Shown in pieces: positions 298 to 33,225 of a DNA stretch of 46,570 nt. Origin of the DNA: Candidatus Aminicenantes bacterium (GTDB lineage: Bacteria > Acidobacteriota > Aminicenantia > UBA2199); the NCBI GenBank assembly GCA_011772425.1, contig WVZO01000394.1:1-46570 (forward strand), given 5' to 3'. Positions within the stretch are counted from its first letter, which is position 1. The number at the start of each line of letters is the position of its first letter. The notes beneath the pieces are model-generated. The model did no database searches and was not told where the DNA came from. It saw nothing but the letters and a program-made list of their open reading frames with translations. The position numbers and the translations under genes are program-made.

Positions 298-525
298 GTG
301 TTTCAACAAAAATATCCGATTGTTCCGGCAAAAAATGGAGATGTTCCAATAAAAAATGCAATTGTTCCGGCAAAAAATGGAGATGTTCTTACTAAAAATG
401 CAATTGTCCCGGCCAAAAATGGAGTTGTTCCGACAAAAACCCCGATTGTTCCGGCAAAAGTTAAAGATGTACCGGTAAAAGCTCCGATTGTACGAGCAAA
501 AGTTGATGCTGAATTTCTTGACTGA
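298..525 (+). CDS. Possible small tandem-repeat protein (14-aa unit PIVPAKNGDVPxKx)
   Basis: ORF built from 42-nt repeats. Several differences between units are synonymous (GTT/GTC/GTA, GCA/GCC). No clear SD, and the antisense frame is also open. Confidence 0.35.
   Translation: MFQQKYPIVPAKNGDVPIKNAIVPAKNGDVLTKNAIVPAKNGVVPTKTPIVPAKVKDVPVKAPIVRAKVDAEFLD
316..510. repeat. Tandem repeat, ~4.6 x 42 nt (underlying 21-nt period)
   Basis: Units start at 316, 358, 400, 442 and 484; first unit CCGATTGTTCCGGCAAAAAATGGAGATGTTCCAATAAAAAAT. Confidence 0.9.
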
Positions 526-538
526 GCCTTTTTGCCTT

Positions 539-949
539 TCACAAATTTACGATAATATCGTACTGAAACCCAATCCTCTGCCCCATCGCCTCAAAATGCT
601 TGTCTTTTGCGAAAATGATTAGATTATTTAATTTGGCATGGGTGGCTATCATAATATCAGTCATGGGTAAGTTTATACCCGAACTCCTTAGTTGACTTGC
701 TATTCTTGAACTTTGAATAAAAAATCCCTGGTCCATTTCCAGGTATTTAAGCCCTGAAAAACTATCGATGATAAACTCAGTTTGTTTTTTGCTTCTAGCA
801 CCGGTTAATAATTCATGGATAATGATTCCATTGTAATAAATCCTGTTATTGGAAATCATTTCCATGATTCGATTTTTAATTGCTTCAGATTTTCCACGAA
901 AAAAATCCACCCATACGGACGTGTCTATAAGATAATCGAAATTACTCAT
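539..949 (-). CDS. vapC: VapC-family PIN-domain toxin
   Basis: LIDTSVW, HELLTGA, TDIMIA and KDKHF motifs carry the PIN acidic residues; overlaps the upstream antitoxin. Confidence 0.9.
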   Translation of the reverse strand: MSNFDYLIDTSVWVDFFRGKSEAIKNRIMEMISNNRIYYNGIIIHELLTGARSKKQTEFIIDSFSGLKYLEMDQGFFIQSSRIASQLRSSGINLPMTDIMIATHAKLNNLIIFAKDKHFEAMGQRIGFQYDIIVNL

Positions 950-1163
950 ATAACTCCTTCATTTCTTGTAATTCCCTGTTTCTTAACTCCCTGACATCCA
1001 GGTCCAAGTCTATCTTACCATATGCATTCATAAGGTTTTGTCTGCGAATCTTACCCAGGTATTCGGATAGTGCATTATTGATGATTTCAGTCTTGTTGGT
1101 GCTCCCGGTATGCTTGCAAATGGCCTGTATTAACGAATCGTCGATGTTTAATGTTGTTCTCAT
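942..1163 (-). CDS. vapB: VapB-family antitoxin
   Basis: MRTTLNIDDSL...TNKTEIINNAL; start moved to ATG 1163, which follows a GGAGG SD; coupled to vapC. Confidence 0.88.
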   Translation of the reverse strand: MRTTLNIDDSLIQAICKHTGSTNKTEIINNALSEYLGKIRRQNLMNAYGKIDLDLDVRELRNRELQEMKELYE

Positions 1164-1242
1164 CTGTACCTCCTGTGCATATAATAATGTCATCTCAATA
1201 ATCTGTCAAGTACTGTGAGAGAATATTTTTAATTTTTCTTTT

Positions 1243-2002: not shown

Positions 2003-3352
2003 TTATCCGTTATCAGGGGTTACGCTTTCGGGGGCTGAGATCAGCATGACCCGGTCCCATTTGGGCTCGATATCTGTTACCGCGCCCAGCAAGGCTAAAC
2101 CGATACCCGCTGCTCCCTGGATAAAACCGGGGTCATATTGTTCCGCCAGCTCTCCGTCTTCGTTCATGCTGTACTTGCTGAAACCGGCGATACCGGTTCC
2201 CGGTTTTCGTATATTGATTGTATGATGAAACCATTTGCGTGCTTCTTCTTTAAAACGTTCGATCCGGATGGTTTGATATATCCGGTTGAAAAGATGTGCC
2301 AGGCCCGCGGTTCCGTGACACAACGTGGCATCGGGGTAGGTTGTCTTTTGCAGTAACTCATTAAGGTAATCGATGGAGGCATGGGCGGCTTCAATGGCTT
2401 TAGCTGTCCAGGAAGACTCACCGGTACAGCGTGCGGCGGAAAGCAGGGCTGCCGCTAAGCCTAAATCTCCATGGCACCAGCCAAAGGTACCGGATGATTT
2501 TGGTTTGTTATCAGGTGGCAGCAGGAGCAACGGGAAGAGTAAACCGAGATCGCTTCCCTGCTGCTGGGCCAGCAGCCAGGACACCGCACCATCAAGAAGC
2601 TTTCCGGTGACATCCGGCAAAATACCCAGGGCGTGAACACGGGAAAGAAAGGAAATCACTCCCGCAGTGCCGTGAGCGATACCCAACGCATAAAAGCCGT
2701 TGGGATATACCAGCCGCGATCGTTGCGGCAGTGTCTCTGTGGGAGTGAACCAGGTGACTCCCTTTTCGTTATGAGTCGCTAACCGGTCCAGTTGATTGAT
2801 CAATATTTCCAGGAGTGTTTTTGCACCGGGCTGCGGGTATCGCTCCAGTGCATAAACCCCCAATCCCACGCATCCCTCCCATAGATCGAATTTCTCCGGT
2901 TTGGACCAGTGGTCCAGCAGTAACCGGTCGATTTCTATATTGGGATCGGTCTCCGGATCATAGGATTCGTCTTCGTAAAGAAAACCCTGTAGGTGCTGCA
3001 CGACCCAGGCAATACCGCTTAAACCGCGGTATAAACCACCTTCCATCGGTACTGTTTCAAGAGCATCGCAGGCATGGGATATAAACCGGTCTGCTTCGTC
3101 GGCAAACAGGGGGCTGGCAGCGGGAACCCGGGAAAGATACGCATAAAAAAGGGCAATGCCGGAGGAACCATGGGCCAATGATGCACCGCGGGCGATACGA
3201 TACGGTTCTACTGCAACTTTCTCCCGGGGAATCCAGGCTGCAGGAGGATGATGAAGCGCTTTTGCGATCTCATCGACAACTTCAAAAACTTCTTCAGCCT
3301 CTGAACCTTCTAAAATCGGATGCCACTTGTTATCTATACTTTTCTTCTCCAT
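2003..3352 (-). CDS. lanC: Lanthionine synthetase C (class I LanC-type cyclase)
   Basis: Repeated GxxG barrel motifs, GIAHG (catalytic His), FGWCHGD and LCHG (Cys-Cys-His zinc ligands), C-terminal GFIQGAAGIGLALL...WD. Confidence 0.93.
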   Translation of the reverse strand: MEKKSIDNKWHPILEGSEAEEVFEVVDEIAKALHHPPAAWIPREKVAVEPYRIARGASLAHGSSGIALFYAYLSRVPAASPLFADEADRFISHACDALETVPMEGGLYRGLSGIAWVVQHLQGFLYEDESYDPETDPNIEIDRLLLDHWSKPEKFDLWEGCVGLGVYALERYPQPGAKTLLEILINQLDRLATHNEKGVTWFTPTETLPQRSRLVYPNGFYALGIAHGTAGVISFLSRVHALGILPDVTGKLLDGAVSWLLAQQQGSDLGLLFPLLLLPPDNKPKSSGTFGWCHGDLGLAAALLSAARCTGESSWTAKAIEAAHASIDYLNELLQKTTYPDATLCHGTAGLAHLFNRIYQTIRIERFKEEARKWFHHTINIRKPGTGIAGFSKYSMNEDGELAEQYDPGFIQGAAGIGLALLGAVTDIEPKWDRVMLISAPESVTPDNG

Positions 3353-3370
3353 CTTAATTCATAATCCCCA

Positions 3371-3405
3371 ATTCATCATTCATCATTCATCATTCATAAT
3401 TCATA
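3371..3405. repeat. Heptamer tandem repeat ATTCATC x3 + ATTCATA x2
   Basis: Read directly between the precursor gene and lanC. The same motif recurs at ~4999-5024. Confidence 0.9.
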
Positions 3406-3416
3406 GCTTGTCCCAG

Positions 3417-3467
3417 ATTGGACCTCAATCCTCCACAGCCTTTCGGCCATGGAGGTTCGAGGCCAAT
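3417..3467 (-). terminator. Long GNRA-capped stem-loop between precursor and lanC (attenuator or mRNA stabiliser)
   Basis: Minus strand: ATTGG-CCTC-GAA-CCTCCA-TGGCC[GAAA]GGCTG-TGGAGG-ATT-GAGG-TCCAAT. No U-tract follows, so read-through into lanC is plausible. Confidence 0.65.
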
Positions 3468-3482
3468 ACTACAACTACAGGA

Positions 3483-3722
3483 TCAATAGGTTCGGGGCCA
3501 CATACATATGCATGGCCATTTAAATTCTGTACAAGGGTTACAATGTGTTAAGCATGTACATACGGTATCGAAAGTACAATCCAGGGTACATTCATAGGTA
3601 CATGGATAATTGATTGTTTCAGTTTCACCGGCGAGCACTTTCTTGGTGCTTTCCAAACCCAACCTGGCAATGGTTTCTTTGGTTAGTGTAAGCTTACGCC
3701 CAAACTTTTTTTGTTTTTTCAG
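3483..3722 (-). CDS. lanA: Lanthipeptide-type precursor peptide, 79 aa, CTG start
   Basis: AAGGAGG-4 nt-CTG with an in-frame TAA just upstream. Translation: (M)KKQKKFGRKLTLTKETIARLGLESTKKVLAG|ETETINYPCTYECTLDCTFDTVCTCLTHCNPCTEFKWPCICMWPRTY*. KLxLxKETIAxL leader, AG double-Gly-like site, Cys/Thr-rich core, directly upstream of lanC. Confidence 0.88.
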   Translation of the reverse strand: MKKQKKFGRKLTLTKETIARLGLESTKKVLAGETETINYPCTYECTLDCTFDTVCTCLTHCNPCTEFKWPCICMWPRTY

Positions 3723-3787
3723 GTTTCCTCCTTGTTATATAAGAATTTTGGTTTTTGTTGGCAATAAAAGAAAAATATTGACGCCCT

Positions 3788-3796
3788 ATTATACCA
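3788..3796 (-). promoter_or_regulatory. Putative extended -10 promoter for lanA-lanC
   Basis: Minus strand TGGTATAAT (TGnTATAAT) about 65 nt upstream of the CTG; no good -35. Confidence 0.45.
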
Positions 3797-3847
3797 TCCC
3801 AGATTAATGTCCATAGTATATTAATTTACTGGTTTGATAACAAAAAG

Positions 3848-27250: not shown

Positions 27251-27712
27251 GTGATGACCAAGAAAATGAATAGCAATGCGAACAACAAACGGGTGACCCG
27301 TACAGAAATGAATCGATTGATGGCAATCCCTGAAGTCCGGCAAATTATCGAAGCGAAATTTGCCGAACTTCGTTTGCTTTTTAAAGATAAACTCCAGGAA
27401 CCGGATGAACTGGAGCTTGCTTTTTCTGATAACAATTCCAATATCATCCGATTTCCTCTGCTTGAAGTGATAGGAGCGGGTAGTGAAATGAAACCAAAAC
27501 CGCAAGATCTACAAGGAAAAAACCAACGGGAAAATATGGGAAATTTAATTAAAATTGTCGATGCCTCCAGGTATAGAAGCGAACCGGAAGAGGAACAGGT
27601 TAACATTTTCATGGAGTATTTCGAGAACCATAAGGTTATCAGAAAAGCGGTACTGGATGAGTTCTTTTTGCGAATTTTGCCTTATTCGGACATTGGCATT
27701 GAGAATGGATAG
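27251..27712 (+). CDS. Hypothetical protein
   Basis: 153-aa ORF with a GGGAG SD; no recognised motif. Confidence 0.65.
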   Translation: MMTKKMNSNANNKRVTRTEMNRLMAIPEVRQIIEAKFAELRLLFKDKLQEPDELELAFSDNNSNIIRFPLLEVIGAGSEMKPKPQDLQGKNQRENMGNLIKIVDASRYRSEPEEEQVNIFMEYFENHKVIRKAVLDEFFLRILPYSDIGIENG

Positions 27713-27745
27713 TAAGTCTCTTCAATTGTTAATTGTTCATGTCAT

Positions 27746-29635
27746 TTATCTGAGGGATATGGCGTTTAGGTCGACGGTTACGAGGCGGAGATCTTCCATG
27801 GGCTGCTGATGACTCTCTTTGACGGTAACATCGAACAAGTGGCTTCCCAGGTAGATGATAATAGCATGGGGTTTGAGTTTATCGATGGCATTTTTGAAGG
27901 CCTGTTCAAACTCTTTTGAGACGCGATACAAGAAATCGTCGAACACATATATGTTGGCGTTTTGTGCCAGTTTTAATGCAAGATAGGCGCTGTAAAAAAC
28001 CTCGTTATCCAGGGCTTTGATTTTTTGATTCAACTGCTGCCTGGTGACACCCAGGGTTTGCAGGTTTTCCCTCACCTGGAAGTCATGAAAATTCGTATGC
28101 TTGTTTTGTTGGTATAGGCGGATTTCAAACTGCAGCCAGGAATTTAATGATGTTCCCGGGTCGTGGCGGGACGGGTCAGGCTTATCGATAATGACCGCAC
28201 GTTTTGATTCCAGGTAATTGATGATGCCGTTTTTTTGTTTGGGGTCCCGGGAATGGTAAAAGTAAGTTTTTCCCATTTCCAGTTGATGGATGTCCAATTT
28301 GATGGGTTCTGAGTTTTTTGGTTGTTTTGCTGTGCGCAGCAAACCCAGTAACGTTGGTCCCAGCAGTAAAAGACAGTAAAGAAGTGTAATTCCCATTCCT
28401 TGCCAATGATTGTCTGGTAAAGCGGCCTGTGACTGGAAAATATTTTCGTTGTTCTTTACAAAAGATTCTACCGATTGATCGATATGGTTGTACCGTTTGT
28501 CAAAATAGTATTTAAAGAAGTTGTCCTTTAATTCGATGATATATGATAAAAACGCTTGATAACCATAGTAGCCCATACCGGTAAATTCTTTGGATAAGAA
28601 GGAGTAGAATAGGGAAGGGAATAAGGTGGATTGTTTTTCATGACGGGTGATCAGTTCGTTGACTTGTTTGTTCAGGTTGTCTTCGATTGATTTGTTCAGG
28701 GGCAATATGTTTTGGATGTACTCTTCCACAAATTGCCTGGCAAGGGTCCTGATTTCTTTGACTTTTTTTTCCTGCAATCGTTTGAAATATGCTTCGCCTC
28801 TTTCTTCGAAGCGTTTGCTATTGTTTAGTTTCTTGATATTTACGATTTCATTGGATTGGATGGTTTTGGCTCTTTTTTCCAGGGCCATATTGTAGATAAT
28901 GGGAACAACAAAGATGATGATAAACCAGGTCAAATAGGCACTGATGAAGAATATTTTTTTATAGCGCAGGAGCGCCGCCATCCCGGTTCCCAGGATGTAG
29001 AAGAGGGTGATAAAGAGCATCACATAGAGAGAGTATTTGAAAAAAATCGCTGTATCGGTTTTGCTGAAGGATACCCCCAGTACCCTGGCAAAAAAGTAAG
29101 CGGCCACTGTGACCGAATAAAAGTAAAAAATCAGGATAGTGAAGCGGCAGCAAAGGGTATTGAAAATATAGGACCTGGTTTTGTGAAATTGAAGAGATTC
29201 GATACTGACGAAGGTATTGAGGCCGAAATGCAGCATCAGCAGGCTGCCCAATACCAGGAAGAGGGTGGAGAAATCACCCACCAATCCGTTATTGGTAAAG
29301 ATTTTTTGTCCTTTGTAAACAGATGAGATGTTTATAATACTTTTGGTATTGATATTGCCTTCGATGGACAATATTGAAGAGTGACAAAAGACAATTAAAG
29401 GAGAGGGCTGCAAAAGTACCCGGAATCCGGAGAAACCGTATTGTTCGTAATTGAGGTAATGACTAATTTTAAGGTTTTCATATTTCAGGAAATTTTGCTT
29501 TTCAATCAGAAACTCCCTGTATTTGGCGCAACCAAAGTAGACAAAATATAAGGATAAACCGAAGAATAACAGGAATACGGAAATATTTTTTAGACTGAGA
29601 ACCCGTTTGATTTCAAGCAAAAATGTGGTTCTCAT
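27746..29635 (-). CDS. ABC-2-type permease fused to a degenerate ABC ATPase-like domain
   Basis: About six TM segments with a large loop; C-terminal MGKTYF and IYVFDDF remnants. Confidence 0.65.
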   Translation of the reverse strand: MRTTFLLEIKRVLSLKNISVFLLFFGLSLYFVYFGCAKYREFLIEKQNFLKYENLKISHYLNYEQYGFSGFRVLLQPSPLIVFCHSSILSIEGNINTKSIINISSVYKGQKIFTNNGLVGDFSTLFLVLGSLLMLHFGLNTFVSIESLQFHKTRSYIFNTLCCRFTILIFYFYSVTVAAYFFARVLGVSFSKTDTAIFFKYSLYVMLFITLFYILGTGMAALLRYKKIFFISAYLTWFIIIFVVPIIYNMALEKRAKTIQSNEIVNIKKLNNSKRFEERGEAYFKRLQEKKVKEIRTLARQFVEEYIQNILPLNKSIEDNLNKQVNELITRHEKQSTLFPSLFYSFLSKEFTGMGYYGYQAFLSYIIELKDNFFKYYFDKRYNHIDQSVESFVKNNENIFQSQAALPDNHWQGMGITLLYCLLLLGPTLLGLLRTAKQPKNSEPIKLDIHQLEMGKTYFYHSRDPKQKNGIINYLESKRAVIIDKPDPSRHDPGTSLNSWLQFEIRLYQQNKHTNFHDFQVRENLQTLGVTRQQLNQKIKALDNEVFYSAYLALKLAQNANIYVFDDFLYRVSKEFEQAFKNAIDKLKPHAIIIYLGSHLFDVTVKESHQQPMEDLRLVTVDLNAISLR

Positions 29636-29641
29636 TATTTT

Positions 29642-30271
29642 TTATTGAGAGAGAATGGTCTGGGCTGTCATGGTGCAGTAATTACCGAAAAGTGATGATT
29701 CTGAAAACTGCTGGAGTAACTGCCATAGTAAGTAAATATCCGGTAATTGGTTGGCAGCCAGTTTTTCTTTGATTGGCACCAGGGTGAGTAAGATATCGTC
29801 GATATATTCCACCTGTTGTTGGTACGTGCCCAGGATATTCCCTTCGCTGAAATAAGCCTTTACCAACGCCATTACGTCGCTGTTTAATTGTTTGTCAGCG
29901 GTATAAGTGTCGTAATCAAACGTTTTAAACTTTTGAATCATTTCTTCCACATAGCCGGCTTGTTTTCCCAGGGTGTGCGCTTGCGCATAATTGTCCTTTG
30001 CTTTTTCCAGTTCAGTGATGGCTTTTTCCATATACTCCAATGCTATTAGGTAGTTGAGGGATTCTTTGGCAGACTTTTCATATTCTTTCATTAAAATGTT
30101 CGCGTGAGAATAAGCGTTAAAAAAGTGAATGGTTCCGTCAATAACCGAGCTCTCAATCTTTGACCTGTTTATTCCATCAGGAAAGACCGGCACGATGTCG
30201 TTCATGTTTATAAGGGCCTGCATTACGAATGCAAAACCTAATGTGATTAGGATAAAAATAGCTTTTTTCAT
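29642..30271 (-). CDS. Exported helical hypothetical protein
   Basis: Start moved to ATG 30271 (AGGAGG SD; MKKAIFILITLG signal peptide); 6 nt upstream of the permease. Confidence 0.8.
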   Translation of the reverse strand: MKKAIFILITLGFAFVMQALINMNDIVPVFPDGINRSKIESSVIDGTIHFFNAYSHANILMKEYEKSAKESLNYLIALEYMEKAITELEKAKDNYAQAHTLGKQAGYVEEMIQKFKTFDYDTYTADKQLNSDVMALVKAYFSEGNILGTYQQQVEYIDDILLTLVPIKEKLAANQLPDIYLLWQLLQQFSESSLFGNYCTMTAQTILSQ

Positions 30272-30512
30272 AAATCCTCCTGTTTTTGTATCCACATGAT
30301 AATTGAAAAAAATAGAAAAGTCAACCCCAATTCTTGAAAAAAATAATTTTATTTTCAAAACCATTAGGAATATCAATTTTTCAATCCATTAAACTCCAGG
30401 ATTGCTGTGGATTTCCGGGTGGTATGAAATCAATCTCAGCGGTGGAAGTTTTTTTCGCGCCGTTGCAAACTTTTGTTTTTTTGGTATACTAGAGCAGAAA
30501 GAAGGAGGTAAA

Positions 30513-31958
30513 ATGGAATTAAATGCAAAAGTCAAAATAGATGCCATCTTGAAAACATACCCGTTTTTACTGGAATTTATGGTAGATCAATGGCCGGCGT
30601 TTAAAAAACTGAAAAACCCCGTGCTGCGGAAAACCATCGGCAAAATGGCCACTATGGGTCAAGCAGCTGCAATGGCAGGAGTCGATGTGGGGGTTCTTTT
30701 AAATGATATTGCCTATAAGATAGAAAAACAAACCGGAAACCGTCCCACCGTCACAACAGGAGAGCCCGATACTCCCGAAGCGTTTATAGACAAAGAGGCG
30801 CGAGAGGAGGTTCTAAAAGATATTATTCGAGACCTGCACGCCGGCAAAGACCTGGAAGAGCTGAAACAGCGCTTTCGAAAACTCATCGAGGATGTAGCTC
30901 CTCATGAAATTGCCAACATGGAACAGCGGCTCATTGAAGAGGGCATGCCTGCAGAAGAAGTTAAGGAATTGTGCGATGTTCACGTTCAAATTTTCCAGGA
31001 ATCTTTGAAGAAACACGAAATTCCCGGTGCTCCTCCAGGTCATCCCATCCATACGTATATGAAAGAAAACAGACGGACTGAGGAAATTATCCGGGAGTTG
31101 GAAGATATGATGGAGAAAAAACAAGATAACGTCCAGGTTGCCAGCAAACTGGATGAACTGTCCCATATCAATTTCCATTATTTGAGAAAGGAAAACCAGT
31201 TGTTCCCCCTGCTGGAAAAGAAAAACGTATCCGGCCCTTCCACTGTCATGTGGGGTATTCATGATGACATTCGCGAAACCTTTAAAAAGCTCGAAAGCAT
31301 CCTGACAGATTCACCCGAAGCTGGAATACTTGAGAAAGAATTGACTAATTTGGTCACTCTTATTCGGGATATGATCTACAAAGAGGAACGGATTCTTTTC
31401 CCCATGGCTCTTGAAGTTCTATCTGAAGAGGAATGGGGAAGAGTGAAGCAAGGCGAGGAAGAAATCGGTTTCTCCTGGGTCCAACCGGATAAAGGATGGG
31501 AACCCAAAACAGGCGTTGAAAATAGAGGAAAGAAAGAAGCAGCGCAGGCGGGCCTTAACCTGGATACGGGAACCCTTACCCGTGAACAGGTCAACTTACT
31601 GATCAACCATCTGCCCATTGAGGTTTCTTTTGTAGACGAAAACGACGAGGTGCGGTTTTACTCTCACAGCGGCGGCAAACGAATCTTTCCTCGCAGTCCT
31701 GGTGTCATTGGCAGAAACGTGCAGAATTGTCATCCCAGAAAAAGTCTCGAGGCTGTGGAAAAAATTCTAGCCGAGTTCCGTGCAGGGAGAAGGGATACGG
31801 CTGAGTTCTGGATTCAAATGAGCGGCCAATTCATCCTTATTCGCTATTTTGCCCTCCGGGATGACAACGGAACGTACAAGGGCACATTGGAAGTGACCCA
31901 GGAAATCACCGATATCCGCAAACTGGAAGGAGAAAAACGACTCCTGGATTGGGAATAG
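30513..31958 (+). CDS. DUF1858/DUF438-hemerythrin-PAS domain protein
   Basis: Start moved to ATG 30513 (AAGGAGG SD). LCDVH, GHPIHTY, HYLRKENQLFP, MWGIHDDIR, YKEERILFP, VQNCHP. Confidence 0.92.
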   Translation: MELNAKVKIDAILKTYPFLLEFMVDQWPAFKKLKNPVLRKTIGKMATMGQAAAMAGVDVGVLLNDIAYKIEKQTGNRPTVTTGEPDTPEAFIDKEAREEVLKDIIRDLHAGKDLEELKQRFRKLIEDVAPHEIANMEQRLIEEGMPAEEVKELCDVHVQIFQESLKKHEIPGAPPGHPIHTYMKENRRTEEIIRELEDMMEKKQDNVQVASKLDELSHINFHYLRKENQLFPLLEKKNVSGPSTVMWGIHDDIRETFKKLESILTDSPEAGILEKELTNLVTLIRDMIYKEERILFPMALEVLSEEEWGRVKQGEEEIGFSWVQPDKGWEPKTGVENRGKKEAAQAGLNLDTGTLTREQVNLLINHLPIEVSFVDENDEVRFYSHSGGKRIFPRSPGVIGRNVQNCHPRKSLEAVEKILAEFRAGRRDTAEFWIQMSGQFILIRYFALRDDNGTYKGTLEVTQEITDIRKLEGEKRLLDWE

Positions 31959-31976
31959 GCACTTACAGTGCGGTAA

Positions 31977-31996
31977 GCATTTACAATGCGGTAAAA
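31977..31996 (+). repeat. 20-bp dispersed motif GCATTTACAATGCGGTAAAA
   Basis: Exact reverse complement at 44559-44578; partial TGCGGTAA copies flank it locally. Confidence 0.75.
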
Positions 31997-32049
31997 GGTA
32001 GAGGGGCGGTGCGGTAAAACGTCAAAGCATGAGACCCGGAACCTTTTTT

Positions 32050-33225
32050 TCATTGGGGTGGATGGGCAACATAGATGTCTACACCGTTTTCTGCCGGTAA
32101 TACAGCGGCGCCGGCTAAAACATCCACGTATGATAAAAAGTCTAGTGGAGCACCGGAACCAAAATTAAGATCTCTTATGGGTAAACGAGTTAAGTTGGTA
32201 ACGATTATACCATGATGTGGATGCCTGAGATGGATTTCTTCCATTGCATCCAGGCCTTTTTGTTTCCGAAGACTTTCCAGTGTTCCAAATGACCTCAATA
32301 TATAATCATTTTTTACCTTTCTTATCGAATTTCTAACTAAAATTGCCAGCTCTCCTATTGATGCCTCTAAAAGACCATTAAAATTAATGGCAGCCGTTCC
32401 AAAACTAAGGGCACAGCCAAAATAATTTCTCGGCAAACCGCTTAGTACTCTGCGAATGTCAACGGGGCAGGTGACATACGTTTTTTGATTTCTATTTTCT
32501 TTACTCCATAGTGGAATATATTTTTGCCAGAGAAGAGCAGTAATTATATCGTTATCTGTCAACGATATTCCCGGCTCATTTTTTGTATCCTCTAAAATGG
32601 ACCTGATCGTATCTTTTGAAAGGAAAAAACGTTCTTCATGAACCGGTTCGCTTTGTAATTCTCTGCGCTTTTCACCATAAAAAAGCCCGCAGTTGGTATA
32701 AATATCATTGGCTGTGATTATTTTTTCGCTCTTATTAAAATTTGCCAATAATACATCCCGCTGAAGGCTGGGTTTAATTATAGGTTCACCTCTGCATATC
32801 CTTGCCCAGGCGGAGAAAAAATGAAAATAACTAAAACCATCAACCAATGCATGTGATACACTAACCGCTAAAACAGAACCTCCCGACGTTTGGGTTAATG
32901 TTATTTTTGTTAATGGCTTTCCGGCAATGGAACTCACAGGAATTATATATTGCTCAATGCTGCCGGCTTCCTCAAAGTTTACCTCTGATTCCAGGACAGC
33001 AAACGTTAATCCCTCTTCTGAAATATGGAACTCATAATCCGTTTCGGAAATTCTGACTAATTTACTGCGTAATATGGGAAAATAATTTAGTGTCTCATGT
33101 AGACTTTTTTTCAATAAACCAGGATCAAGTATCTGATTATAAGAAAAAGCAAACGTTATTGGCTGAGAGCCAACACCTGTAAAGATATAATCAACCGGAC
33201 TAAGCGGAAAGACATTCATAAACAT
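32050..33225 (-). CDS. BAHD/Transferase-like CoA-dependent acyltransferase
   Basis: HALVDG (HxxxD), VDIRR..LPRNYFG and DLNFGSG (DFGWG-like). Confidence 0.8.
   Translation of the reverse strand: MFMNVFPLSPVDYIFTGVGSQPITFAFSYNQILDPGLLKKSLHETLNYFPILRSKLVRISETDYEFHISEEGLTFAVLESEVNFEEAGSIEQYIIPVSSIAGKPLTKITLTQTSGGSVLAVSVSHALVDGFSYFHFFSAWARICRGEPIIKPSLQRDVLLANFNKSEKIITANDIYTNCGLFYGEKRRELQSEPVHEERFFLSKDTIRSILEDTKNEPGISLTDNDIITALLWQKYIPLWSKENRNQKTYVTCPVDIRRVLSGLPRNYFGCALSFGTAAINFNGLLEASIGELAILVRNSIRKVKNDYILRSFGTLESLRKQKGLDAMEEIHLRHPHHGIIVTNLTRLPIRDLNFGSGAPLDFLSYVDVLAGAAVLPAENGVDIYVAHPPQ

What the first reader, a model, noticed from the sequence alone, without database searches (positions are those of the whole stretch)
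2003..3733. Two-gene RiPP unit: hidden Cys/Thr-rich precursor plus LanC, with no dehydratase
Seen: a 79-aa ORF missed by the ORF track, with a 32-aa leader (KLTLTKETIARL...VLAG) and a 47-aa core ETETINYPCTYECTLDCTFDTVCTCLTHCNPCTEFKWPCICMWPRTY. The core has 9 Cys, 10 Thr and no Ser, with repeated C-T-x-x-C units. A hairpin and a LanC with intact GxAHG/WCxG/CHG motifs follow. The unit is bounded by a metallophosphoesterase and a convergent XRE gene. No LanB, LanM, LanKC, C39 transporter or radical SAM enzyme is recognisable in 46 kb. Established: class I LanC adds Cys to dehydroamino acids made by LanB, and LxLxKx5L-type leaders mark a group of class I precursors. Inference: either a satellite precursor+cyclase module that shares a distant LanB (giving a heavily cyclised, all-methyllanthionine peptide with up to 9 rings), or a LanB-independent route with different chemistry.
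Basis: partly seen in the sequence, partly recalled or inferred. Interest (0 to 1): 0.88.

Follow-up and report, generated by a model that had tools for sequence, protein, structure and literature searches.

The report
Satellite lanthipeptide precursor-cyclase pair, dehydratase elsewhere
A small cysteine- and threonine-rich peptide gene sits beside a ring-forming lanthipeptide enzyme, while the dehydrating enzymes it should need lie elsewhere in the same genome; the pairing recurs in relatives, but this copy of the peptide gene lacks a normal start codon.

Summary
A 79-codon frame (3483-3722, minus strand) carries a class I lanthipeptide leader (NF038153, 26.8 bits against a cut-off of 22). 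Its 47-residue core has 9 Cys, 10 Thr and no Ser. A conserved hairpin and an intact LanC (2003-3352) follow.

Three points change the reading.
1. The dehydratase is not missing. The 10.4-Mb MAG has two split LanB pairs (contigs C526 and C495) and one C39 ABC exporter (C453). It also has 78 leader-bearing peptides on 56 contigs.
2. The LanB-less precursor-plus-LanC unit is conserved. All 10 loci of this LanC clade (51-80% identity) have an adjacent precursor and none has LanB. All 5 genomes that hold the clade carry LanB on another contig. More distant LanCs (26-38%) sit directly beside split LanB.
3. Where the orthologous precursors with the same N-terminus have ATG, this window has CTG.

Best reading: a satellite precursor/cyclase module of a dispersed class I system, with dehydration in trans. 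The local precursor is probably weakly translated or recently silenced. LanB-independent chemistry is not needed to explain the locus. This is a new variant of a known kind, of moderate interest.

The parts
2003..3352 (-). lanC: class I-type lanthipeptide cyclase, 449 aa, intact frame
   Evidence: PF05147 at E 2.7e-41. H / C / CH motifs align with NisC and MadC chains. 64-80% identical orthologues in L060-L066 and 51-53% in L077/L078.
3355..3405 (.). 7-nt tandem repeat (ATTCATC/TAATTCA, about 5-7 copies) between the hairpin and the lanC start
   Evidence: Tandem Repeats Finder. The same words occur in very many contigs of four runs, with summed depth up to 2662, and Logan contigs of the source run break here.
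3410..3475 (-). Conserved lanA-lanC intergenic hairpin with no U-tract in this copy: a likely attenuator or mRNA-stabilising stem
   Evidence: MFE -50.2, z -6.95. Orthologues fold at z -3.78 and -4.10. 12 consensus pairs, 7 with changes on both sides, 94.4% of cells paired against 38-61% for slid controls. Not called a terminator by the consensus scan.
3483..3722 (-). lanA precursor frame: leader 3627-3722 (32 codons, first codon CTG), core 3486-3626 (47 codons), stop 3483-3485
   Evidence: Translation. NF038153 at 26.8 bits against a cut-off of 22. Orthologous precursors sit upstream of orthologous LanCs. ATG in the orthologues against CTG here.
3727..3733 (-). Shine-Dalgarno AAGGAGG, 4 nt before the CTG
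   Evidence: Sequence. GGAGG and the start position are aligned in the two relatives. Other precursors of the genome show the same ggn/ggi + M context.

Best explanation
This is a satellite lanA-lanC module of a dispersed class I lanthipeptide system of the split-LanB, LxLxKx5L/Gly-Gly-leader type.

**Shown**
- The peptide has a curated class I leader and a Cys/Thr-rich core.
- The neighbouring LanC has the Zn-ligand and catalytic motifs.
- A structured hairpin separates the two genes.
- The same arrangement, without LanB, recurs in every examined locus of this LanC clade.
- The genome holds two split LanB pairs, one C39 ABC exporter and 78 peptides with this leader on other contigs.

**Inferred**
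- A LanB pair binds the shared leader and dehydrates Thr to Dhb in trans. The C526 pair is the more likely one, because its orthologue in G015 sits next to a precursor with the same leader family.
- This LanC then adds Cys thiols to give methyllanthionine rings. These would include ring(s) in the clade-specific C-terminal motif CxCx[YW]PxT, where the Cys residues precede the Thr.
- The C39 exporter cuts after the Ala-Gly of the leader and exports the product.
- The hairpin sets the precursor:cyclase transcript ratio.

**This copy**
The start position is CTG, where the seven orthologous precursors with the same N-terminus have ATG. Translation is therefore probably only a few percent of normal, or the precursor has recently been silenced while lanC remains intact.
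For: **Leader and cyclase**
- The leader is over the NF038153 cut-off.
- LanC domain and motifs are intact.

**Enzymes elsewhere in the genome**
- LanB glutamylation domains: C526 at 538.5 bits and C495 at 114.2 bits.
- Elimination domains: C526 at 223.6 bits and C495 at 160.5 bits.
- Neither LanB contig carries a LanC match. Neither carries a leader over the cut-off among the 78.
- One Peptidase_C39 frame of 730 aa lies on C453.
- No DUF4135 match.

**Precursor repertoire**
- 78 leader matches over the cut-off on 56 contigs. 74 of 78 cores have at least 2 Cys and at least 2 Ser/Thr. Leader matches end in GG in 65 and AG in 5.

**Conservation of the LanB-less unit**
- The 10 loci of this LanC clade are the window, L060, L061, L062, L063, L064, L065, L066, L077 and L078. 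L062/L063 are duplicates and L065/L066 near-duplicates.
- 10 of 10 have a leader-bearing peptide next to LanC: directly upstream in 9, convergent in L077.
- For the window, no LanB match lies on its contig.
- For L060-L066, tblastn found no LanB.
- For L077 and L078, the only LanB matches of G428 and G427 are on other contigs.
- By contrast, L069, L072, L073 (26-38% identity) and L076 show LanC immediately followed by LanB-N and LanB-C.

**Genome-level co-occurrence**
- The clade occurs in 5 of 72 genomes of the family: G000, G004, G015, G427, G428. All 5 have Lant_dehydr_N on a different contig.
- In the 41-genome relatives sample, all 11 genomes with a LanC match also have LanB.
- In G015, the LanB cluster on C17 carries a precursor with the same leader family, while this clade's LanC lies on C4, a 126.7-kb contig.

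**Clade-specific core motif**
- C.C.[YW]P.T is present in the adjacent precursors of 7 of the 10 loci. It is absent from the other 77 leader peptides of this genome.

**Phylogeny**
- In a quick tree of 37 hand-picked rows, the LanB-less LanCs form one clade (SH-aLRT 98) apart from the LanB-adjacent ones.

**Hairpin**
- Covariation as given under parts.

**Start codon**
- Alignment shows ATG in relatives and CTG here.
- A Logan contig of run X1 is identical over 3376-3800. X1 may be the source of this DNA, so this only excludes a MAG-assembly slip.
- CUG initiates at 1-2% (0.02-3% in other constructs) of AUG in E. coli (passages of bioRxiv 10.1101/063800).

**Predicted LanB-precursor complex (weak support only)**
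- The query was LanB-N of C526 with this precursor, using my own alignments A6 and A5.
- ipSAE 0.45 (runs 0.29, 0.45, 0.46) against a best control of 0.01.
- The mark was reached by 58 of 80 solved complexes and 2 of 110 mismatched pairs. At 0.60 or under it was reached by only 7 of those 80 and by both mismatches.
- Runs agree in at least 24% of contacts. Partner pLDDT is at least 33.
- A LanB-leader complex has been solved (recalled), so the pass may be from memory.
Against: - No experiment shows dehydration or rings.
- The MAG is fragmented: 768 contigs, 87.65% complete, 6.86% contamination. Physical distances between the LanB loci and this locus are unknown, and a binning error cannot be fully excluded. 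However, LanB of C526 is 62-68% identical to LanB of same-family genomes, and GC is similar.
- The CTG start means the local precursor may not be made at all.
- Its leader end (GLESTKKVLAG) departs from the LEQxKVxGG of most orthologues.
- Which LanB pair acts is not known.
- The complex prediction gives only weak support.
- With about 150 or more radical SAM matches in the genome, some peptides that bear this leader may be substrates of other enzymes. The leader alone does not prove LanB processing.
- Kin genomes are not independent, so the co-occurrence counts overstate the support.
Confidence: 0.6

Rival explanations
1. The unit is a decaying remnant in this genome. The precursor is dead because its start codon was lost. 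LanC is either drifting or has been taken over by other precursors. The unit therefore makes no product of its own here.
For: CTG stands where the seven orthologous precursor genes with the same N-terminus have ATG. Among the 83 leader-bearing frames of this genome found by my own HMM, the precursor-like ones start with ATG or, in two copies on C352, with GTG; only this one has CTG. The leader's C-terminal third is divergent. CUG starts work at about 1-2% of AUG in E. coli.
Against: The 79-codon frame is otherwise open. It keeps the invariant leader and core positions K5 K6 R9 L11 L13 K15 T17 I18 L21 G32 T34 C41 C71 C73 P76 T78 and a strong Shine-Dalgarno site at the conserved spacing. LanC is full length with all motifs. 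A single substitution is very recent on this scale, or could be tolerated as a low-output start.
Confidence: 0.22
2. The route is LanB-independent. The adjacent LanC works with an unrecognised dehydrating activity, or catalyses another thiol chemistry on this Cys/Thr-rich core, without any LanB.
For: No LanB lies in any of the 10 loci of the clade. The clade forms its own branch. The conserved motif places Cys before Thr, which is an unusual order.
Against: Every one of the 5 genomes with the clade has LanB. No other enzyme is conserved next to the pair: tblastn with the metallophosphoesterase and the XRE protein found nothing in L060-L074, and only VapBC recurs, in L061. The leader belongs to the family seen beside LanB in G015. 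LanC keeps the canonical Zn/acid-base motifs used for Michael addition to dehydro residues.
Confidence: 0.08
3. The peptide is not a lanthipeptide. It is a Gly-Gly-leader secreted, disulfide-rich (or otherwise modified) peptide, and the LanC-like protein has another role.
For: The leader type is also an export signal for C39 transporters (passages of PMC7268733). Stand-alone LanC-like genes without LanB are reported in Bacteroidales (passages of PMC10352776). The genome has at least 150 radical SAM matches, some near leader peptides, for example on C377.
Against: The Bacteroidales stand-alone LanC-like proteins lack the Zn triad, whereas this one has it. Thr is enriched threefold over background in these cores while Ser is not, as expected for methyllanthionine substrates. 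Precursor and LanC have stayed adjacent through 51-80% divergence.
Confidence: 0.07

Closest known systems
Bacteroidetes-type class I lanthipeptide clusters (pinensin-like: LxLxKx5L leader ending in Gly-Gly, split LanB, LanC, C39 protease/transporter), as described by Walker et al. 2020, PMC7268733 (passages read)
   Same: Same leader motif, confirmed by NF038153. Gly-Gly-type leader end, split LanB glutamylation and elimination proteins, LanC with a CCH zinc site, and a C39 ABC exporter are all present in the genome.
   Different: The parts are not clustered here. This LanC clade always travels with precursors only, and LanB and the exporter lie on other contigs. The precursors carry a clade-specific C-terminal CxCx[YW]PxT motif. 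The host belongs to an uncultured lineage. The NCBI title of same-genus G004 reads Candidatus Deferrimicrobium sp.. I could not see the paper's supplementary tables, which may list comparable LanC-only neighbourhoods.
Prochlorosin system of marine picocyanobacteria (class II: one ProcM, many dispersed ProcA precursors)
   Same: There are many precursor genes with a conserved leader and highly diverse cores, scattered away from the modifying enzymes (78 on 56 contigs). Dispersed prochlorosin precursors are described in passages of PMC7268733 and PMC11251773.
   Different: This is class I machinery (separate LanB and LanC) and not a fused LanM; no DUF4135 match was found. The leader is different (not Nif11). 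There are several LanC paralogues, at least one of them tied to its own precursor subfamily.
NisC and MadC, solved class I lanthipeptide cyclases (2g02_A, 8byk_A)
   Same: Same fold family by sequence (E 1.7e-11 and 7.7e-15). The His, Cys and Cys-His motifs align.
   Different: Similarity is low. In the nisin system the cyclase is encoded beside its dehydratase and transporter (recalled). The residue after the first Zn Cys is His here (WCHG) against Tyr in NisC (WCYG).
Stand-alone LanC-like genes of Bacteroidales (PMC10352776, passages read)
   Same: A LanC-family gene with no LanB in the neighbourhood, and nearby peptides with Gly-Gly-type leaders.
   Different: Those proteins lack the Zn triad, sit near CAZymes, and their genomes have no LanB at all. 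This protein has the triad, sits beside a conserved precursor, and its genome has two LanB pairs. Two other LanC-like proteins of this genome (C26, C573) do resemble that non-RiPP kind, with weak glycoside-hydrolase family matches and, by my reading of their N-terminal sequences, apparent signal peptides.

Membership tests
Class I lanthipeptide biosynthesis (LanA + LanB + LanC) | LanC cyclase domain with Cys-Cys-His zinc ligands and the catalytic His | tested here: met
   PF05147 at E 2.7e-41. GIAHGTAG, GWCHGDLG and LCHGTAG align with the corresponding NisC/MadC motifs. The residue numbering of NisC is recalled, not tested.
Class I lanthipeptide biosynthesis (LanA + LanB + LanC) | Precursor with a class I leader and a core holding both Ser/Thr and Cys | tested here: met
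   NF038153 at 26.8 bits against a cut-off of 22. Core has 9 Cys, 10 Thr.
Class I lanthipeptide biosynthesis (LanA + LanB + LanC) | Glutamyl-tRNA-dependent LanB dehydratase encoded in the same cluster | tested here: not met
   No Lant_dehydr_N or Lant_dehydr_C match on the 63.6-kb contig C626. The matches are on C526 and C495. None in the other 9 loci of the clade. LanB is present in the genome, so the pathway may still be complete in trans.
Class I lanthipeptide biosynthesis (LanA + LanB + LanC) | Product contains dehydro residues and (methyl)lanthionine thioethers | not testable with these tools
   Needs mass spectrometry of a native or heterologous product.
Class I lanthipeptide biosynthesis (LanA + LanB + LanC) | Precursor gene is expressed | tested here: inconclusive
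   The start position is CTG. One wetland metatranscriptome (X17) holds a 265-nt contig over 3668-3750 with 5 differences, and three pieces over lanC with 11-14 differences each. It therefore comes from a relative, and DNA carry-over is possible.
Bacteroidetes-type class I subgroup (LxLxKx5L, Gly-Gly, C39) | LxLxKx5L leader motif and Gly-Gly-type cleavage site, with a C39 peptidase transporter | tested here: met
   KLTLTKETIARL fits the motif. The leader ends in Ala-Gly, as do 5 of the 78 leader matches in this genome. One Peptidase_C39 ABC frame exists, but on contig C453. The motif definition is from PMC7268733.
Prochlorosin-like combinatorial lanthipeptide systems | Many dispersed precursors with a shared leader and diverse cores | tested here: met
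   78 matches over the cut-off on 56 contigs. 30-40 matches in four relatives and 1 in a fifth.
Prochlorosin-like combinatorial lanthipeptide systems | A single fused LanM (ProcM-type) synthetase | tested here: not met
   No DUF4135 match in the genome, which is 87.65% complete. The control genomes did not ring either, so this search is weak. The LanM NCBIfam score of this LanC is 91.4 bits against a cut-off of 304.

The most novel reading that the evidence does not exclude
This uncultured lineage may run a class I counterpart of the prochlorosin system. Thirty to eighty dispersed precursors share one leader. One or two split LanB dehydratases and one C39 exporter serve them in trans. Paralogous LanC cyclases have each co-evolved with their own precursor subfamily. 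On this reading the LanC clade found here is a dedicated cyclase, kept beside its substrates because it makes an unusual C-terminal ring or rings in CxCx[YW]PxT, with Cys N-terminal to the dehydrated Thr, that the core-cluster LanC cannot make.
Probability: 0.4. Interest if true: 0.7.

Novelty: new variant of a known kind. Interest (0 to 1): 0.5.

Why it matters
Class I lanthipeptide mining normally anchors on LanB and LanC lying together and looks for precursors a few genes away. Here the cyclase and its precursors form a conserved unit of their own. The dehydratases, the exporter and dozens of further precursors are scattered.

Cluster-based tools would therefore split or miss the pathway and greatly under-count its products.

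If one leader really feeds two LanB pairs and several specialised cyclases, the system would be a natural example of modular, trans-acting class I biosynthesis. It would also be a source of leader-compatible enzymes for peptide engineering, and of heavily cross-linked Thr/Cys-rich scaffolds.

The CTG start is a useful caution: a well-formed RiPP locus may be silent in the very genome where it is found.

Tried and rejected

**Papers.**
- Bothwell et al. 2021 on Pedobacter lusitanus (PMC9845027) is not held. Caetano et al. 2020 was seen only as a reference entry. These two papers could describe related unclustered class I architectures.
- Four full-text searches for a dispersed or unclustered class I system and a fifth returned nothing that describes LanA-LanC modules separated from LanB. 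One search, which added the genus name, found no paper that names it (the listed rows all show 0 occurrences).
- Supplements of papers were closed.

**Reads.**
- All four runs are contigs, not raw reads.
- The list of differing letters was cut (149 rows not shown), so I could not see whether relatives in X2, X4 and X17 carry ATG at the start position.
- X2 and X17 show no depth over 3443-3622. X4 shows none over 3503-3622 and a depth of 3.76 in the 3443-3502 bin. The single joint 3405>3665 in X2 has only 21 letters on its shorter side. I draw nothing from this gap.
- Core variability is argued from the orthologue alignment instead.
- Logan contigs of X1 break at the 7-nt repeat and do not bridge lanA to lanC. 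The join rests on the MAG assembly and on the same gene order in the other 9 loci.

**Radical SAM link.** By hand count, 16 of 78 leader genes lie within 10 kb of a Radical_SAM match. With at least 150 matches in 10.4 Mb this is no more than chance, so no association is claimed.

**Promoters and terminators.** Promoter-like sites upstream of the precursor (3851-3815, minus strand) are no more frequent than in shuffles. The hairpin is not a canonical terminator here, because it lacks a T-run.

**Flanking genes as partners.** tblastn with the metallophosphoesterase and the XRE protein found no match in L060-L074, which include seven of the nine other loci of the clade. L077 and L078 were fetched later and were not searched this way. 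Both genes are rejected as part of the module.

**Phylum-wide search.** This LanC was found in 0 of 400 other sampled genomes at E<=1e-90. The sample did not include G004 or G015.

**Tree.** The careful treekit search did not finish in 268 s. The quick tree (SH-aLRT only, midpoint root) is used. It has 37 rows: 17 taken from loci and the genome, and 20 of the 120 listed homologues picked by hand across the identity range.

Full report
**What is there**

On the minus strand, 3483-3722 is a 79-codon frame. It reads LKKQKKFGRKLTLTKETIARLGLESTKKVLAGETETINYPCTYECTLDCTFDTVCTCLTHCNPCTEFKWPCICMWPRTY. Its first codon is CTG, which is why an ATG/GTG/TTG ORF list shows only a 59-aa TTG fragment. AAGGAGG sits 4 nt upstream.

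The first 30 residues match NCBIfam NF038153 (lant_leader_L1a, named 'class I lanthipeptide') at 26.8 bits against a cut-off of 22. Pfam has no match. The 47-residue core after Ala-Gly has 9 Cys, 10 Thr and no Ser.

A strong hairpin follows at 3410-3475 (MFE -50.2 kcal/mol, z -6.95). Next come a 7-nt tandem repeat at 3355-3405 and a 449-aa LanC at 2003-3352 (PF05147, E 2.7e-41). The His, Cys and Cys-His motifs of this LanC align with those of NisC and MadC chains.

The flanks are a membrane metallophosphoesterase and a convergent XRE-type HTH gene.

**The rest of the window**

Nineteen further ORFs of at least 180 aa were scanned. They include a hybrid histidine kinase/AraC regulator, a GGDEF response regulator, exonuclease VII, a tail-specific protease, HEAT-repeat proteins, an esterase and an amidohydrolase. 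None is a RiPP enzyme.

**The dehydratase is elsewhere, not missing**

The window is the first 46.6 kb of contig C626 (63.6 kb). The MAG is 10.4 Mb in 768 contigs, 87.65% complete with 6.86% contamination.

- Lant_dehydr_N matches lie on C526 (538.5 bits) and C495 (114.2 bits). Each is followed by a separate Lant_dehydr_C protein, so there are two split LanB pairs.
- Neither LanB contig has a LanC match. Neither has a leader over the cut-off among the 78.
- One Peptidase_C39 ABC frame lies on C453.
- No DUF4135 (LanM) match was found. The controls did not ring either, so this search is weak.

Five LanC-family matches exist:
- this one;
- a 31%-identical LanC on C463;
- a 711-aa form with a C-terminal extension on C70;
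- two on C26 and C573 with weak glycoside-hydrolase family matches and, by my reading of their N-termini, apparent signal peptides. These look non-RiPP.

**A very large precursor family**

NF038153 finds 78 matches over its cut-off, spread over 56 contigs.

- 74 of 78 cores have at least 2 Cys and at least 2 Ser/Thr.
- Cys is 15.4% of core residues against 0.9% in long ORFs of the genome. Thr is 14.9% against 5.1%. Ser is not enriched (5.5% against 5.8%).
- 65 leader matches end in GG and 5 in AG.

Four relatives carry 30-40 such leaders and a fifth carries one. Only the peptide in this window lies beside a LanC.

My own leader HMM over all six frames found 83 frames. Among the precursor-like ones, two copies on C352 start with GTG and this one has CTG; the others start with ATG.

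**The pair is conserved, and always without LanB**

Relatives of this LanC at 51-80% identity were found in:
- two species-representative genomes (G004/L060 and G015/L061);
- five metagenome contigs (L062-L066);
- two more genomes of the family (G428/L077 and G427/L078).

L062/L063 are duplicates and L065/L066 near-duplicates.

All 10 loci, the window included, have at least one leader-bearing peptide next to LanC. It is directly upstream in 9 and convergent in L077.

None of the 10 has LanB:
- the window's contig has no LanB match;
- tblastn with both LanB pairs found nothing in L060-L066;
- the LanB matches of G427 and G428 are on other contigs.

L061 covers 8 kb on each side of LanC within a 126.7-kb contig, and G015's LanB matches are all on contig C17.

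In contrast, more distant LanCs (26-38% identity: L069, L072, L073) and the C463-type LanC of G001 (L076) are immediately followed by LanB-N and LanB-C. In G001 a C39 exporter and a 459-aa ORF that I read as HlyD-like (not scanned) follow as well.

In G015 the two LanB pairs lie in one row with a precursor and a C70-type extended LanC.

A quick tree of 37 hand-picked rows puts all LanB-less LanCs in one clade (SH-aLRT 98), apart from the LanB-adjacent ones.

At genome level, the clade is in 5 of 72 family genomes, and all 5 have LanB. In the 41-genome relatives sample, all 11 genomes with any LanC match also have LanB. Kin are not independent, so these counts are descriptive.

**Precursor subfamily**

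The precursors beside this LanC clade share an N-terminus. Six begin MKKQKK and two begin MKKKFGRKL. Invariant positions are K5 K6 R9 L11 L13 K15 T17 I18 L21 G32 T34 C41 C71 C73 P76 T78. The last four form a C-terminal motif, CxCx[YW]PxT: CPCEYPIT, CPCQYPLT or CPCQWPFT in relatives, and CICMWPRT here.

The motif occurs in adjacent precursors of 7 of the 10 loci. The exceptions are L065, whose copy is out of frame relative to L066, and L077 and L078. It occurs in none of the other 77 leader peptides of this genome.

Between the leader and this motif the cores differ widely in length and sequence. The window's core is the longest, with repeated C-T-x-x-C units.

**The hairpin is a conserved element**

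Intergenic regions of six loci give a 12-pair consensus stem.
- 7 pairs have changes on both sides.
- 94.4% of cells are paired, against 38-61% when the partner is slid by 1-3 columns.
- 0-1 of 500 shuffles reach the observed paired percentage, covariation score or count of pairs changed on both sides; 5 of 500 reach the count of further pair types.

Two orthologues have a T-rich tail after the stem and the window does not. I read it as an attenuator or stabiliser that sets the lanA:lanC ratio. That function is inferred.

**The start codon**

Aligned with G004 and G015, the Shine-Dalgarno site, the spacing and the following 20 bases are conserved. The start is ATG in both relatives and CTG here. 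The seven other precursors of the subfamily all begin with M.

A Logan contig of run X1 is identical over 3376-3800. X1 may be the source of this DNA, so this excludes a slip of the MAG assembly, not a population variant.

In E. coli, CUG starts give 1-2% (0.02-3% in other constructs) of AUG (passages of bioRxiv 10.1101/063800). The local precursor is therefore either a low-output gene or freshly silenced.

**Expression**

Runs from marine sediment (X2), marsh (X4) and a wetland metatranscriptome (X17) hold contigs about 90-95% identical to parts of lanC and to the leader/promoter part. In the RNA library, one 265-nt contig covers 3668-3750 with 5 differences. This shows close relatives in such samples. 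It is a weak hint of transcription at most, because the runs are contigs and DNA carry-over is possible.

**Mechanism**

- *Shown:* the parts listed above and their conservation.
- *Inferred:* a LanB pair recognises the shared leader and dehydrates Thr. This LanC cyclises, with a probable special role at the C-terminal motif where Cys precedes Thr. The C39 exporter removes the leader after Ala-Gly.

A complex prediction of LanB-N (C526) with the precursor gave weak support only:
- ipSAE 0.45 (runs 0.29, 0.45, 0.46) against a best control of 0.01;
- the mark was reached by 58 of 80 solved complexes and 2 of 110 mismatched pairs, but at 0.60 or under by only 7 of those 80 and by both mismatches;
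- runs agree in at least 24% of contacts, partner pLDDT is at least 33, and my own alignments were used;
- a LanB-leader complex has been solved (recalled), so the pass may reflect memory.

**Comparison with what is known**

Known features (passages of PMC7268733):
- the LxLxKx5L leader;
- Gly-Gly leader ends with C39 proteases;
- split LanB enzymes.

Dispersed precursors are known for class II prochlorosins. Stand-alone LanC-like genes in Bacteroidales lack the Zn triad, and their genomes lack LanB (passages of PMC10352776).

I found no description of conserved LanA-LanC modules separated from LanB, or of a class I system with tens of dispersed precursors, in the searches. One search found no paper naming the genus. 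Two relevant papers on Pedobacter lusitanus and all supplements could not be read.

**Verdict**

The locus is a real, conserved, LanB-less precursor/cyclase module of a dispersed class I lanthipeptide system. It is a new variant of a known kind. New chemistry is unlikely. The local precursor is of doubtful expression. Interest is 0.5.

Noticed in passing
G000 genome-wide (e.g. C497:27452, C47:101800, C471:43641, C741:3167): At least 150 Radical_SAM matches at E<=1e-8 (150 of 206 candidates were scored). Many lie inside open frames of 2000-6151 aa. This is an unusually rSAM-rich genome with many giant genes.
   Followed up: no
G000 C377:23284-34275: Four L1a-leader peptide genes flank three consecutive Radical_SAM frames of about 750 aa (27562-32947). 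This is probably a separate rSAM-type RiPP cluster that uses the same leader family.
   Followed up: partly
window 3355-3405: The 7-nt repeat (ATTCATC-like) between the hairpin and lanC occurs in very many contigs of all four runs laid (summed depth up to 2662). Logan contigs of the source run break there.
   Followed up: partly
window 299-491: A 42-bp (21-bp sub-period) tandem repeat of about 4.6 copies at the contig start. It overlaps repetitive small ORFs on both strands.
   Followed up: no
L067:10-3640: A metagenome contig carries three tandem LanC genes (36-38% identical to this one), followed by a weak leader-like match with a Cys/Thr/Ala-rich core.
   Followed up: no
L064:3091-3387: A 98-aa peptide near the orthologous LanC has a different leader ending in KGG and a core made of repeated T-C-x-x-T-C units.
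   Followed up: no
G000 C70:16984-19119 and L075:2039-4078: A LanC-family protein of 679-711 aa has a C-terminal extension of about 270 aa. In G015 it directly follows the second (C495-type) split LanB pair. It forms a very distant branch of the LanC tree.
   Followed up: partly
L041 (G000 C495):6512-7636: An APH-family phosphotransferase gene lies directly after the second split LanB pair.
   Followed up: no
window 539-1193 and L061:10141-10775: A VapC (PIN)/VapB pair lies a few genes beyond lanC in both this window and the G015 locus (37% and 47% identity). This is the only conserved neighbour of the module.
   Followed up: partly
window 32050-33225: An ORF matches Pfam 'Transferase family' PF02458 (E 2e-29), which I recall as mainly a plant/fungal acyltransferase family. 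It lies next to two HEAT-repeat proteins.
   Followed up: no
taxonomy of G000/G004: The NCBI title of same-genus G004 reads Candidatus Deferrimicrobium sp. However, the phylum from which genome search sampled spans at least 97 families and 228 genera. The public label may therefore not reflect the placement used here.
   Followed up: no
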